Below are positions 27,711 through 30,151 of a DNA stretch of 64,000 nt, in pieces. The notes below the pieces were generated by a model. That model had not been told where the DNA came from and searched no databases. It saw nothing but the letters and a program-made list of their open reading frames with translations. Position 1 is the first letter of the stretch. Every line of letters starts with the position of its first letter. The translations under genes and the position numbers were made by a program. Source of the DNA: a virus (Duplodnaviria; Caudoviricetes); IMG/VR virus record IMGVR_UViG_3300024259_000011, one strand, 5' to 3'.

Positions 27711-28481
27711 TCAGATTGGCGCCATGAATGACCCTATGCGGATCCACCCGAGGCTGGCTCCAATGCACTGAAGTACTACCGCGTCGAGGTTTGCTAAAGT
27801 CAAGTCACCGGCAACATTATCTATGTTTTTACCGTTACGTGAAATCGTCAGCATGTTATTGGCGCCGTTGCTGCCTGAATCCATTCTCTTAATCGTATAT
27901 ATTCTACCAGCCATGGCGTCTGTCGCAGATGGCAATGTAAGAGTAAATGCTGATGAGTTGCAATCTGCGACAATACAAAAGTCAGTTGCGGTTATTGTGT
28001 AAGCGCTTGTCCGTAAAGTTCCAGTTGGAAATGATACTGACGATGCTACATGTAAACCAGAGCCCGGGGTACTTGTTCCAATCCCGACTGCTCCATTCAC
28101 TCCATCAACATGAATATATGCATTATAATTTGCTCTGACAGTGAGAGATTCAGTTCCTGCAGATGCGTTTCCCTTGATCGATACAGAGCTGTCTCCCCAA
28201 AGTACACCACGATCATTGTCACAATAAAAACTGTTAGCCTCAACTCTGACGCCACCTCCCTTAAAATTAAAGAAGTTCCAAGAGGCGGGGGAGCCGGCTG
28301 TGGAGGCGTTTCCAAACGCAATACCACCGTCAGCATTTATTACAAGCCGCTGGGTGCCGGCTGTGTCAAAGCGAATCTTGTCTTCATCACTGGATTCTTC
28401 TACTTGAACTTTGGTGTCGCCATCGGCATCTTCCAAGGTGTCTTCTTTCCCTTGACTTGGGTTTATCTTGGTAGTCGCCAT
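27711..28481 (-). CDS. Putative virion structural / tail-fibre-like protein
   Basis: DADGDTKVQVEESSDEDKIRFDTAG and GIGTSTP motifs, plus C-terminal AYTIT..D...TLTLP...GRIYTIK, all recurrent in phage fibre proteins. Confidence 0.55.
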   Translation of the reverse strand: MATTKINPSQGKEDTLEDADGDTKVQVEESSDEDKIRFDTAGTQRLVINADGGIAFGNASTAGSPASWNFFNFKGGGVRVEANSFYCDNDRGVLWGDSSVSIKGNASAGTESLTVRANYNAYIHVDGVNGAVGIGTSTPGSGLHVASSVSFPTGTLRTSAYTITATDFCIVADCNSSAFTLTLPSATDAMAGRIYTIKRMDSGSNGANNMLTISRNGKNIDNVAGDLTLANLDAVVLQCIGASLGWIRIGSFMAPI

Positions 28482-28663
28482 TACTTGCTTACCTTAAAGC
28501 TGCTTGACGGTTCTGCATGCAGCAGGATTTCTCGATTAGGAGTCCAACTTGAGACCTCCAGATACTTCGCCTTTGCCTCTTCTTTATTAGATGCCATAAT
28601 CGCGCCTAAGTCGCGATACTTTTTGGTCTTTCTGTTGTATTCTTGAATAATATAATTTTCCAT
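28481..28663 (-). CDS. Hypothetical protein (60 aa)
   Basis: Start at MENYII after GAAGGAG; the longer ORF-track version runs through tRNA-Asn. Confidence 0.65.
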   Translation of the reverse strand: MENYIIQEYNRKTKKYRDLGAIMASNKEEAKAKYLEVSSWTPNREILLHAEPSSSFKVSK

Positions 28664-28677
28664 GATATCTCCTTCAA

Positions 28678-28754
28678 TGGCTGGGGCGGCAGGACTCGAA
28701 CCTGCAACCTCCCGGGTAACAACCGGGTGTCCGTGCCTGTCGGACCTCACCCCA
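28678..28754 (-). tRNA. trnN: tRNA-Asn(GTT), atypical D-arm
   Basis: Cloverleaf TGGGGTG/CGCCCCA, CCCGG-TTGTTAC-CCGGG, TTCGAGT T-loop, G73, encoded CCA. Confidence 0.85.
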
Positions 28755-28799
28755 CTATTTAGTTCTATAGTAAATAGTTTGCTTTTCTGTGTTCTCCTG

Positions 28800-28875
28800 T
28801 GGTGGGTCAACTGGGGCTTGAACCCAGAACCTACGGGTTAAAAGCCCGGTGCTCTACCAATTGAGCTATTGACCC
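28800..28875 (-). tRNA. trnK: tRNA-Lys(TTT)
   Basis: GGGTCAA/TTGACCC acceptor, CTTTTAA loop, TTCAAGC T-loop, CCA. Confidence 0.93.
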
Positions 28876-28884
28876 ATAAAAAAT

Positions 28885-29013
28885 GCTCCCCAGCATCGAC
28901 TCGACCAAACACGTTTCATCGGGCTTGTCACCCTCCACGCCATCTGCATTGCAATTTAGTCCTCATGGCGATCTGCACGTAGGCGCTTTTCCGGGGCGCC
29001 GCTGAACGGGAGC
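28885..29013 (-). ncRNA. Candidate structured ncRNA between tRNA-Gly and tRNA-Lys
   Basis: Closing helix GCTCCC..CAGC/GCTG-GGGAGC with inner hairpins GGCGC/GCGCC, CGCCAT/ATGGCG and GGG/CCC; no credible ORF. Confidence 0.5.
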
Positions 29014-29022
29014 GGAAAGGAA

Positions 29023-29097
29023 TGGAGCGGGAAACGAGATTTGAACTCGCGACCCTCACGTTGGCAACGTGATGCTCTACCACTGAGCTATTCCCGC
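29023..29097 (-). tRNA. trnG: tRNA-Gly(GCC)
   Basis: Canonical GCGGGAA...TTGCCAA...TTCCCGCTCCA. Confidence 0.96.
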
Positions 29098-29103
29098 ATT
29101 CAA

Positions 29104-29613
29104 CTATTTATCGCTTTGCTTTGCGCGACCATAGCCCTTTTTCCATTCCTGTTTTTCTGTACTCTTTTCAATCCCGGGATGAGGGGCTTTTTTCCGGCGC
29201 TTATTAACCAAATCGCTGCTGCTTTCGATTTTATCGCCGCCGACATTCCAAATCATTTCGATGTCCAACTCTTCGCAAACTTGTACTTCTGGAACGTTAT
29301 CGGACTTTCGATCTCCACCATTAGCAAAGTACGTTGGCTTTAAACGCCGTAGAGCCTCGCACACGGTCTCATCGTGGTCGTCTACCCATTCTACCCTTAT
29401 TACGCCCTTCAGCGCCTCTAAAATCTCTTTTCGCTGATTCCATGGCATAAACACAAATCCTTTTTTGCGAAATAGCCATGAGTCACTGTTAGCAACAACA
29501 ATAACATCGCCGTACTCGGCGGCTGCTAAAATCATCCTAACGTGTCCGATATGTACGGGGTCGAACCCCCCTGAAACTACTACCGTGTCATACGGTGTTC
29601 TTGCTTTTGTCAT
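29104..29613 (-). CDS. Cytidylyltransferase-like protein (HIGH family; TagD/RfaE-like)
   Basis: SGGFDPVHIGH, VVANSD and ANGGDR motifs. Confidence 0.88.
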   Translation of the reverse strand: MTKARTPYDTVVVSGGFDPVHIGHVRMILAAAEYGDVIVVANSDSWLFRKKGFVFMPWNQRKEILEALKGVIRVEWVDDHDETVCEALRRLKPTYFANGGDRKSDNVPEVQVCEELDIEMIWNVGGDKIESSSDLVNKRRKKAPHPGIEKSTEKQEWKKGYGRAKQSDK

Positions 29614-29779
29614 TGATTATTCCCTCCTCAATCATGTGTTTAGCGTTTCGTCCGAACCAGCCCTGTAAAGACCATGCCAGCCCAGTATCAACCAAGTGTT
29701 GCCAAGCCGCAATGACTTGTTCCTTGCTTTCTGGTTCTAAGAACCCTTCAGCGATACCGATTGCTTCAAAATTTGTCAT
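29588..29779 (-). CDS. Conserved phage hypothetical protein
   Basis: WQHLVDTGLAWSLQGWFGR motif recurrent in phage small proteins. Confidence 0.7.
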   Translation of the reverse strand: MTNFEAIGIAEGFLEPESKEQVIAAWQHLVDTGLAWSLQGWFGRNAKHMIEEGIINDKSKNTV

Positions 29780-29784
29780 ATATG

Positions 29785-29861
29785 TGGTACTCCGAGTAGG
29801 ACTTGAACCTACGACCCACAGCTTAGAAGGCTGTTGCTCTATCCAACTGAGCTACCGGAGC
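29785..29861 (-). tRNA. trnR: tRNA-Arg(TCT)
   Basis: GCTCCGG/TCGGAGT acceptor, CTTCTAA loop, CCA. Confidence 0.95.
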
Positions 29862-29865
29862 TTGT

Positions 29866-30108
29866 TTACTTGTAGTAGCTACTAACAAGCGCGTAATAAG
29901 CTACGGCTAGAGCATGGTTGTATTTCGGATCAATGCTGTCCATTATTTTAACGATTTGTAAAATGAAAATCTTTGTTTTTTCATATTCAGCTTCATCATG
30001 GATGACGCTTTCAACGATATGAAACATCTCTTTTGCTGCAGCCTCAACATCGTCTAATGCCAATAAACGTGCAGCGTATGATTTAGCGAGATTTTCGGTG
30101 TCGTCCAT
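29866..30108 (-). CDS. Hypothetical protein
   Basis: 80-aa ORF directly after a sigma70 promoter and a CTATTTA motif. Confidence 0.6.
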   Translation of the reverse strand: MDDTENLAKSYAARLLALDDVEAAAKEMFHIVESVIHDEAEYEKTKIFILQIVKIMDSIDPKYNHALAVAYYALVSSYYK

Positions 30109-30122
30109 ATCATACTAAATAG

Positions 30123-30151
30123 AATATAACATCAAATGTGGTCTTTGTCAA
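30123..30151 (-). promoter_or_regulatory. Sigma70-type promoter
   Basis: TTGACA-N17-TATATT. Confidence 0.7.

What the first reader, a model, noticed from the sequence alone, without database searches (positions are those of the whole stretch)
28885..29013. 129-nt structured RNA wedged between tRNA-Gly and tRNA-Lys
Seen on the minus strand: GCTCCC-GTT-CAGC pairs with GCTG-GGGAGC; inner hairpins GGCGC/GCGCC, CGCCAT/ATGGCG and GGG/CCC; a T-loop-like GGTCGAGTC near the 3' end. Its 5' end echoes the 3' end of tRNA-Gly (CCGCTCC). Known: phage tRNA clusters host ncRNAs such as GOLLD, ROOL and theta ribozymes, but I could not fit it to those. Inference: an unclassified ncRNA released by processing of the flanking tRNAs.
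Basis: partly seen in the sequence, partly recalled or inferred. Interest (0 to 1): 0.6.

Follow-up and report, generated by a model that had tools for sequence, protein, structure and literature searches.

The report
Novel structured RNA among phage tRNAs
The 147-base gap between two transfer-RNA genes of a widespread uncultured marine phage encodes a real, intricately folded RNA of a family not in Rfam 15; its shape is conserved across distant phage relatives, but its job is still unknown.

Summary
The spacer between tRNA-Gly and tRNA-Lys (window 28876-29022, minus strand) is a genuine structured RNA. Its single-sequence folding energy is no better than shuffles (z +0.89) and Rfam 15 has no match. 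Homologs reached through the neighbouring cytidylyltransferase gene, and then through a covariance model, give nine sequences in four lineages. On these, 96.5% of pair cells are standard pairs and 15 pairs changed on both sides (0/500 shuffles reach this).

The fold is a four-way junction:
- P1, with a conserved GUU bulge, plus P2 and P3.
- A variable arm, P4.
- Two pseudoknots: the 5' leader with the P2 loop, and the P3 loop with J4/1.

In the window's clade P4 carries a kink-turn whose core letters are identical to the SAM-I riboswitch kink-turn. CGCCAT/ATGGCG and the 'T-loop' do not.

In three lineages the RNA starts 1-4 nt after a tRNA's CCA and ends in a U-run. One member has no tRNA neighbour. 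Close relatives lack it.

My best reading is a stable small RNA cut out of the tRNA transcript. A new self-cleaving ribozyme or a conditional terminator is not excluded. The scan had noted this same stretch once before (kink-turn note), on the same DNA and not elsewhere.

The parts
29014..29018 (-). Pseudoknot 1, 5' strand (UUUCC) in the leader, 4 nt after the CCA of tRNA-Gly
   Evidence: It pairs with GGAAA in the P2 loop. The partner sequences differ but stay complementary in other lineages: UUCCC/GGGAA, UUGCCA/UGGCAA, UAGCU/AGCUA, UCGC/GCGA, UGCA/UGCG. Own leader with own loop scores 73 against a mean of 41.7 over 720 re-assignments; 0 of 265 derangements and 0 of 5000 leader shuffles reach it.
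29008..29013 (-). P1a, 5' strand (GCUCCC); pairs with 28885-28890
   Evidence: Six pairs, three of them with changes on both sides, 98% of cells paired.
29005..29007 (-). Conserved 3-nt bulge GUU between P1a and P1b
   Evidence: GUU in eight sequences and GUA in L065 (alignment A5).
29001..29004 (-). P1b, 5' strand (CAGC); pairs with GCUG at 28891-28894
   Evidence: Invariant in all nine sequences, so it says nothing by covariation. RNAalifold also predicts it.
28982..29000 (-). P2 hairpin (GGCGC / GCGCC); its loop at 28987-28995 holds the pseudoknot 1 partner GGAAA (28988-28992)
   Evidence: Two pairs changed on both sides, 94% of cells paired. L065 has GCGGC/GCCGC and L190 has GCGAA/UUCGC.
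28964..28979 (-). P3 hairpin (CGUG / CAUG) with an 8-nt loop, CAGAUCGC; loop letters 28969-28972 (AUCG) form pseudoknot 2
   Evidence: Two pairs changed on both sides (G-C, G-U, A-U, C-G at one position). The loop consensus is CA-R-RYCR-Y in all lineages.
28903..28961 (-). P4 arm of the window's clade: helix P4a (28954-28961 with 28903-28910), mini-hairpin UGC-AAU-GCA (28945-28953) and the kink-turn stem-loop (28911-28940)
   Evidence: P4a shows U-G to C-G and A-U to G-U to G-C changes. RNAalifold predicts the same helices. The arm is replaced by a plain 5-bp hairpin in L065 and by other arms in L190 and L221.
28911..28940 (-). Kink-turn: non-bulged strand GCGU-G-GA-GGG, 7-nt loop UGACAAG, bulged strand CCC-GAU-GA-A-ACGU
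   Evidence: The core letters GUGGAGGG...CCCGAUGAAAC are identical to the K-turn module of the SAM-I aptamer of PDB 3V7E, as printed in PMC5393176. Pair 4b-4n covaries A-U, G-U, G-C.
28899..28902 (-). Junction J4/1 (GAGU; consensus GA-R-N)
   Evidence: GAGU, GAGC, GAAC, GAGA and GAAU in the different lineages.
28895..28898 (-). Pseudoknot 2, 3' strand (CGAU), directly next to P1b
   Evidence: Pairs with 28969-28972. 97% of cells are paired; G-C:5/A-U:4 and C-G:7/U-A:1. This helix was not part of the covariance model that made the alignment.
28885..28894 (-). 3' strands of P1b (GCUG) and P1a (GGGAGC)
   Evidence: See P1a and P1b.
28876..28884 (-). Tail AUUUUUUAU up to the first base of tRNA-Lys
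   Evidence: A U-run follows P1 in the window clade, L190 and L221, but not in L065. Sister phages without the element have no U-run before tRNA-Lys (L176).
29023..29097 (-). tRNA-Gly(gcc), upstream neighbour, with CCA encoded
   Evidence: ARAGORN and Rfam, 73 bits.
28800..28875 (-). tRNA-Lys(ttt), downstream neighbour
   Evidence: ARAGORN and Rfam, 74 bits.

Best explanation
Shown: the spacer encodes a member of a family of compactly folded RNAs, absent from Rfam 15, that is carried sporadically and in single copy by large uncultured marine phages. The fold is a four-way junction (P1 with a conserved GUU bulge, P2, P3, a variable P4) locked by two pseudoknots. The 5' leader pairs with the P2 loop. 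The P3 loop pairs with the junction strand that runs straight into P1. In the window's clade, P4 carries a standard kink-turn. G-U pairs and the direction of the compensatory changes show that the structure is read from the tRNA strand.

Inferred: the RNA is made as part of the tRNA transcript. A promoter-like site lies upstream at 30123-30151. Ordinary tRNA 3'-end processing, 1-4 nt before pseudoknot 1, frees its 5' end. Its 3' end is set either by RNase P cutting at tRNA-Lys or by stalling or termination at P1 plus the U-run.

Most likely, at roughly even odds: the released 130-140-nt RNA is a stable molecule that acts through its shape, by binding a host or phage factor, rather than through base-pairing. 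This would resemble the small stable RNAs of the phage T4 tRNA cluster and the spacer-derived small RNAs of bacterial tRNA operons.
For: Homologs: 92% identity (L168), 85% (L169), 83-84% (L163/164/166, L161/162). Covariance model R1 found distant members: L065 = L132 (30.7 bits), L190 (31.4 bits) and L221 (54.6 bits).

Covariation: on nine sequences 96.5% of 346 pair cells are standard pairs against 87.4% in shuffles. Fifteen pairs changed on both sides against 6.1 expected. 0/500 shuffles reach any of the five measures, and slid controls give 38-48%. Pseudoknot 2, which was not in the model, is 97% paired with two doubly changed pairs. Pseudoknot 1 is supported. RNAalifold found P1, P2, P3, P4a and the kink-turn stem independently.

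Other points:
- GC is 0.55 against 0.44 in the flanks.
- No Rfam family matches in any lineage.
- Context: it follows tRNA-Gly (window clade), a tRNA-like gene (L161) or tRNA-Leu(taa) (L190, L221) at 1-4 nt from the CCA.
- The U-run comes with the element, not with tRNA-Lys.
- The DNA is real: contigs of four marine runs cover the spacer with no differences, and 18 runs from 13 named studies (two more runs name no study) hold 95% or more of the words of the surrounding 1.6-kb stretch (28300-29900).
Against: - No RNA data: transcription, ends and stability are all untested. The two RNA runs offered held only 5% of the words, probably tRNA.
- Single-sequence energy is not better than shuffles.
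- Only four lineages and few independent substitution events. The nine-sequence alignment was fitted to the model, which favours the nested helices.
- No partner protein was identified, and no L7Ae-type protein occurs in five related phage genomes.
- Seven of nine related phage records lack the RNA, so it is dispensable.
- A terminator-like end directly before tRNA-Lys is awkward for a simple 'processed spacer'.
Confidence: 0.5

Rival explanations
1. It is a new class of self-cleaving ribozyme that cuts at its own 5' edge, between the tRNA's CCA and pseudoknot 1. It would free the tRNA 3' end without host nucleases, as proposed for the HDV-like theta ribozymes of gut phages, but with a different fold.
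For: The structural 5' edge lies 1-4 nt after an encoded CCA in the window clade, L161, L190 and L221. The core is doubly pseudoknotted and compact, with conserved unpaired letters (GUU bulge, CA-R in the P3 loop, GA-R in J4/1) and a freely variable peripheral arm, which is the usual anatomy of small ribozymes. Phage tRNA-linked ribozymes are a precedent (PMC10879173).
Against: No match to any Rfam ribozyme family. The topology is not the HDV nested double pseudoknot. The L065 member follows a protein gene, not a tRNA. The leader is paired and covaries, so it looks like part of the mature fold. No cleavage data exist.
Confidence: 0.2
2. It is a conditional transcription terminator (riboswitch-like attenuator). 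When the four-way junction and both pseudoknots fold, perhaps helped by a ligand, a protein or a tRNA, P1 closes directly before the U-run. RNA polymerase then stops before tRNA-Lys or the next gene. Otherwise it reads through.
For: A GC-rich P1 is followed within 0-2 nt by a run of 5-8 U in five of six sequence types. The U-run is absent before tRNA-Lys in phages without the element. The architecture is aptamer-like. In L221 the next gene appears to have its own start region.
Against: L065 has no U-run. The simple terminator scan does not flag the site, because the 'loop' is about 110 nt. No alternative antiterminator pairing was seen. A position between tRNAs is unusual for riboswitches.
Confidence: 0.12
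3. It is a passive cis-acting module. Its knotted fold blocks exonucleases or insulates neighbouring tRNAs from misfolding, which stabilises or punctuates the polycistronic transcript. It has no role of its own once released.
For: A 5' end tucked into a pseudoknot, together with a loop-to-3'-strand pseudoknot around a junction, recalls exonuclease-resistant RNAs (my own knowledge, not tested). It occurs after tRNAs and also after an mRNA (L065).
Against: Sister phages manage with 8 nt between the same two tRNAs. The strict conservation of several unpaired letters across lineages is more than a roadblock would need.
Confidence: 0.13
4. It is a functionless spacer, a decayed tRNA gene or a recombination scar.
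For: The MFE is no better than shuffles. There is a 10-nt echo of the tRNA-Gly 3' end. The element is present or absent among close relatives.
Against: Compensatory changes occur in seven of nine helices across four lineages. The tRNA models score nothing there. The core is conserved in phages whose neighbouring cytidylyltransferase protein is only about 60-65% identical or is not linked to the element at all.
Confidence: 0.03

Closest known systems
Phage T4 species 1 and species 2 RNAs (rnaC, rnaD)
   Same: These are small stable RNAs of 139 and 119 nt encoded inside the tRNA cluster of a T4-type phage, directly after a tRNA gene, with function still unknown (annotation of NC_000866).
   Different: No sequence or structure relationship: model R1 scores at most 6.6 bits anywhere in the T4 tRNA region. 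rnaC ends in a tRNA-like T arm, and the present RNA has none.
Theta ribozymes (minimal HDV-like ribozymes next to tRNAs of gut phages; PMC10879173)
   Same: They are structured, pseudoknotted RNAs next to phage tRNA genes, proposed to process the tRNA 3' trailer.
   Different: No hit to any HDV-type Rfam model. The helices found here form a four-way junction with loop pseudoknots, not P1/P1.1/P2/P3/P4. Cleavage is untested.
Kink-turn module of the SAM-I riboswitch (P2; PDB 3V7E)
   Same: The letters of the turn and its flanks are identical: GUGGAGGG...CCCGAUGAAAC. There is a 3-nt GAU bulge, tandem G-A/A-G and an A-G 3b-3n pair.
   Different: Only this module is shared. The rest is not a SAM-I aptamer (no Rfam hit, different junction order). 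The module is missing from L065, L190 and L221.
tRNA-spacer-derived small RNAs of bacteria (e.g. 3'ETS-leuZ of E. coli; my own knowledge, paper not read here)
   Same: These are RNAs lying between a tRNA 3' end and a terminator-like stem plus U-run. They are freed by tRNA processing and active afterwards.
   Different: Those are short, simple and act by base-pairing. This one is a 130-nt tertiary fold whose sequence varies while its shape is kept.

Membership tests
tRNA / tRNA-like | Cloverleaf with D and T arms, scored by ARAGORN and Rfam RF00005 | tested here: not met
   No call in 28876-29022. The 'T-loop-like' letters are a helix strand plus a junction.
HDV-like / theta ribozyme | Nested double pseudoknot P1-P1.1-P2-P3-P4 matched by the Rfam HDV-type models | tested here: not met
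   No hit at E<=10 in the window, at E<=1 in L161 and L163 or at E<=5 in L065, L168, L221 and L190. The covarying helices give another topology.
HDV-like / theta ribozyme | Self-cleavage at the 5' edge | not testable with these tools
   Needs an in vitro cleavage assay.
SAM-I riboswitch (RF00162) | Whole aptamer (P1-P4, J1/2, J3/4, P2-loop pseudoknot) matched by the Rfam model | tested here: not met
   No hit. Only the K-turn module is alike.
Kink-turn motif | C-stem, 3-nt bulge, tandem sheared G-A/A-G, then an NC-stem | tested here: met
   GGG/CCC, GAU, GA/GA, and an NC-stem with an A-U/G-U/G-C covarying pair. Same letters as a crystallised K-turn. The kinked geometry itself is not testable here.
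T4 rnaC / rnaD | Sequence or structure similarity to the T4 RNAs | tested here: not met
   R1 scores at most 6.6 bits on the T4 tRNA region.
Intrinsic terminator | GC-rich stem closed within a few nt of a U-run | tested here: inconclusive
   P1 plus AUUUUUU is present and recurs in three lineages. However, the enclosed 'loop' is about 110 nt, the scan does not call it, L065 lacks the U-run, and no termination assay was done.
Any Rfam 15 family | Match at or near a gathering score | tested here: not met

The most novel reading that the evidence does not exclude
The family is a new catalytic or sensing RNA. It would be either a new class of self-cleaving ribozyme that trims phage tRNA 3' ends, or a ligand- or tRNA-sensing fold that closes its own terminator stem. 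In both cases the two pseudoknots and the conserved GUU bulge would form the active or binding core.
Probability: 0.3. Interest if true: 0.85.

Novelty: new variant of a known kind. Interest (0 to 1): 0.62.

Why it matters
Small structured RNAs inside phage tRNA clusters have been known since T4, yet none has an assigned function. Here a compact fold is defined at base-pair resolution in an abundant ocean phage: a four-way junction, two pseudoknots and an optional kink-turn arm. It is clearly conserved in shape while its sequence drifts, and relatives that lack it provide natural knock-outs. This makes it a clean test case for what such RNAs do, whether tRNA-end processing, transcription control, or capture of a host factor. 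Its anatomy is of the kind that has previously turned out to be ribozymes or riboswitches. It also shows that a shuffle-energy test alone would have wrongly dismissed a real pseudoknotted RNA.

Tried and rejected
1. MFE against shuffles gave z +0.89 on the RNA strand and +0.12 on the other. This was uninformative because the fold is pseudoknotted.
2. Rfam gave nothing at gathering or E-value thresholds.
3. BLAST and nhmmer of the spacer against 160 loci of relatives from IMG/VR and JGI metagenomes gave nothing. The phage collection gave nothing either.
4. Exact patterns for the window-type 3' end and K-turn had 0 hits in IMG/VR.
5. Other long tRNA-tRNA gaps in relatives are AT-rich and look like small ORFs; they are unrelated.
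6. The first gapped core pattern gave 30 IMG/VR hits, 28 of them coding-sequence false positives. The second pattern gave L065, L190, L221 and one false hit, L220. The long-arm version added nothing.
7. The same pattern in 185,579 prokaryote genomes gave 22 hits, none confirmed. The best, at 13.7 bits, is a Vibrio signal-peptide coding region.
8. Model R2 found no further member in 100 loci and none in seven of nine whole phage records.
9. Laid DNA contigs of four runs are identical over the spacer, so they give no population covariation. The RNA runs held too few words to use.
10. I tried by hand to map the RNA onto the HDV fold, hammerhead, T-box, Y RNA and SAM-I. I rejected all of them on topology and on Rfam.
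11. No shared flanking protein across lineages. No L7Ae-family protein in five related phage genomes.
12. The coding reading was not decided by stop-free frames. I set it aside because of the flush tRNA flanks, indels that are not multiples of three, and the covariation.
13. The bulk catalogue of viral candidate RNAs (PMC10690425) could not be checked for this family.

Full report
**Setting**

ARAGORN and Rfam place four tRNAs and a tmRNA on the minus strand of the window. The finding is the 147-nt gap at 28876-29022, between tRNA-Gly(gcc) at 29023-29097 and tRNA-Lys(ttt) at 28800-28875. A cytidylyltransferase gene lies upstream (29104-29613, Pfam PF01467). tRNA-Asn and a 60-aa ORF lie downstream. 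The neighbourhood (PhoH, AhpC, NUDIX, a phosphoesterase) and the relatives (113-204 kb IMG/VR contigs, many with a tmRNA) indicate a large uncultured marine phage. Earlier notes of this scan call it T4-like; I did not test that. The DNA is real and common. Eighteen marine runs from 13 named studies (two more runs name no study) hold 95% or more of the words of the surrounding 1.6-kb stretch (28300-29900). Contigs of four of those runs cover the spacer without a single difference.

**First tests**

Rfam 15 has nothing here, even at E<=10. The minimum free energy (-42.6 kcal/mol) is worse than the mean of the shuffles (z +0.89). The spacer has no look-alike in the phage collection. It has none in 160 loci fetched from IMG/VR and JGI metagenomes through the cytidylyltransferase, where the best protein identity was only 76%. 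At that point the finding looked weak.

**Homologs**

A search of the large protein collection with the cytidylyltransferase gave relatives at 80-99% identity. Their contigs hold the same spacer at 92% (L168), 85% (L169) and 83-84% (L163/164/166, L161/162) identity.

The same look-ups showed that the element comes and goes:
- L176-L183 have tRNA-Gly and tRNA-Lys only 8 nt apart.
- L165, with the same protein as L163, has neither tRNA-Gly nor the element.
- L171-L175 carry a different RNA in the slot, with two kink-turn hairpins.
- L161/162 have an extra tRNA-like gene before the element.

**Structure**

In the alignment of the close homologs (A2), the substitutions fall into compensating pairs. 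The helices, in window coordinates, are:
- P1a: 29008-29013 with 28885-28890.
- A GUU bulge.
- P1b: CAGC with GCUG.
- P2 hairpin: 28982-29000.
- P3 hairpin: 28964-28979.
- Pseudoknot 2: four letters of the P3 loop (28969-28972) with 28895-28898, immediately next to P1b.
- P4 arm: helix P4a, a three-pair mini-hairpin and a kink-turn stem-loop.

RNAalifold recovered all nested helices on its own. On the six close sequences, 97.2% of cells pair and six pairs changed on both sides.

Its 5' strand changes twice with no change in its partner. Those letters instead belong to P3, pseudoknot 2 and the kink-turn stem. The 'T-loop' letters are the 3' strand of P4a plus the junction.

**Kink-turn**

The module reads GCGU-G-GA-GGG / loop / CCC-GAU-GA-A-ACGU. 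Position 4b-4n covaries A-U, G-U, G-C. Its core letters are identical to the K-turn of the SAM-I aptamer of PDB 3V7E, as printed in PMC5393176. The rest of the RNA is not a SAM-I aptamer.

**Distant members**

Covariance model R1 found three further lineages:
- L065 = L132, at 30.7 bits.
- L190, at 31.4 bits, reached through a core pattern scan.
- L221, at 54.6 bits.

They keep P1a, the bulge, P1b, P2, P3, the loop consensus CA-R-RYCR-Y, J4/1 (GA-R-N) and pseudoknot 2. They differ in two ways:
- The stem sequences are different: P2 is GCGGC/GCCGC in L065, GCGAA/UUCGC in L190 and GGCGGG/CCCGCC in L221.
- The P4 arms are unrelated, with no kink-turn; in L065 the arm is a plain 5-bp hairpin.

On all nine sequences:
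- 96.5% of 346 cells are standard pairs, against 87.4% in shuffles.
- Fifteen pairs changed on both sides, against 6.1 expected.
- No shuffle in 500 reaches any of the five measures.
- Sliding the partners gives 38-48%.

The alignment was fitted to the nested model, which favours it. Pseudoknot 2 was not in the model, yet it is 97% paired, with G-C:5/A-U:4 at one position.

**Second pseudoknot**

The 4-6 letters just before P1a are complementary to the P2 loop in every lineage, with a different sequence each time: UUUCC/GGAAA, UUCCC/GGGAA, UUGCCA/UGGCAA, UAGCU/AGCUA, UGCA/UGCG, UCGC/GCGA. Pairing each leader with its own loop scores 73, against a mean of 41.7 over all 720 re-assignments. Only 3 of the 720 re-assignments (the true one among them) score 73 or more, and none of the 265 full derangements or 5000 leader shuffles reaches it. 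I chose the leader and loop limits by eye, which is a weakness.

**Context and ends**

In the window clade, L161, L190 and L221 the leader begins right after an encoded CCA, and pseudoknot 1 starts 1-4 nt later. A U-run follows P1 in these lineages. It is absent before tRNA-Lys in phages without the element, so it belongs to the element. L065 sits between two ORFs and has no U-run. No flanking protein is shared across lineages. The family is single-copy and present in two of nine whole phage records searched. It was not found in prokaryote genomes. A strong promoter-like site at 30123-30151 could drive the whole array.

**What it does**

Nothing here tests function. My odds are:
- About 0.5: a stable RNA cut out of the tRNA transcript that works through its shape. 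This follows from its position, the precedents in T4 and in bacterial tRNA spacers, and the conserved tertiary core.
- About 0.2: a new self-cleaving ribozyme acting at its 5' edge. The argument is the tight abutment to the CCA, the ribozyme-like anatomy and the theta-ribozyme precedent (PMC10879173).
- About 0.12: a conditional terminator, based on P1 plus the U-run.
- About 0.13: a passive stabiliser or insulator.
- About 0.03: a functionless spacer, which is close to excluded.

No L7Ae-type kink-turn binder is encoded by five related phages.

**Comparison with known RNAs**

By position it resembles T4 rnaC and rnaD, but model R1 finds no relationship. It is not a member of any Rfam family. 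It is therefore a new fold within a known kind of locus. I could not check whether it is hidden among the roughly 10,000 unnamed candidates of PMC10690425.

**Verdict**

The interest is moderate to high for RNA biology, limited by the narrow distribution found so far and by the lack of any RNA-level data.

Noticed in passing
L161:3212-3305 (same in L162): An extra tRNA-like gene of about 92 nt lies between tRNA-Gly and the element. It has a T arm GCGGG-UUCGAGC-CCCGC, an acceptor-like GGGGCG/CGUCCC and an encoded CCA. Both ARAGORN and the Rfam tRNA model miss it, so it may be an odd tRNA with a long insert.
   Followed up: partly
L171:2059-2199 (same in L172-L175): In the slot where the window has the element plus tRNA-Lys, these relatives carry another RNA. 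It has a closing stem GGGAGU/ACUCCC around two hairpins, each with a kink-turn signature (C-stem, GAU bulge, GA ... GGA). Its MFE z-score is -5.05, and it has no Rfam match.
   Followed up: partly
L165:1390-1560; L176:1976-2134: There is cassette flux in the tRNA array. L165 has the same cytidylyltransferase protein as L163 but lacks tRNA-Gly, the element and tRNA-Asn. L176-L183 keep Gly and Lys only 8 nt apart.
   Followed up: partly
window 29009-29033: The start of the element repeats the 3' end of tRNA-Gly (GGAGCGGAAA / GGAGCGGGAA on the plus strand). In L163 the repeat is 11 identical letters. It is absent in other lineages and may be a trace of how the element entered this array.
   Followed up: partly
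window 28755-28799: The Lys-Asn spacer holds a small hairpin, CUAUUUA...UAAAUAG.
   Followed up: no
L001:3495-3591, L026:4973-5067, L045:5070-5165, L056:4684-4778, L061:4097-4191: ARAGORN calls over-long (95-97 nt) 'tRNA-Asn' genes in several relatives. They may be tRNAs with inserts, or miscalls.
   Followed up: no
L009:5160-5340, L019:5394-5592, L026:5068-5226, L064:5104-5279: Other long gaps between tRNAs in AT-rich relatives appear to encode small hydrophobic peptides rather than structured RNA.
   Followed up: no
window 30123-30151 (minus strand): There is a near-consensus sigma-70-type promoter (TTGACA, 17 nt, TATATT, with TG) upstream of the gene and tRNA block that includes the element.
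   Followed up: no
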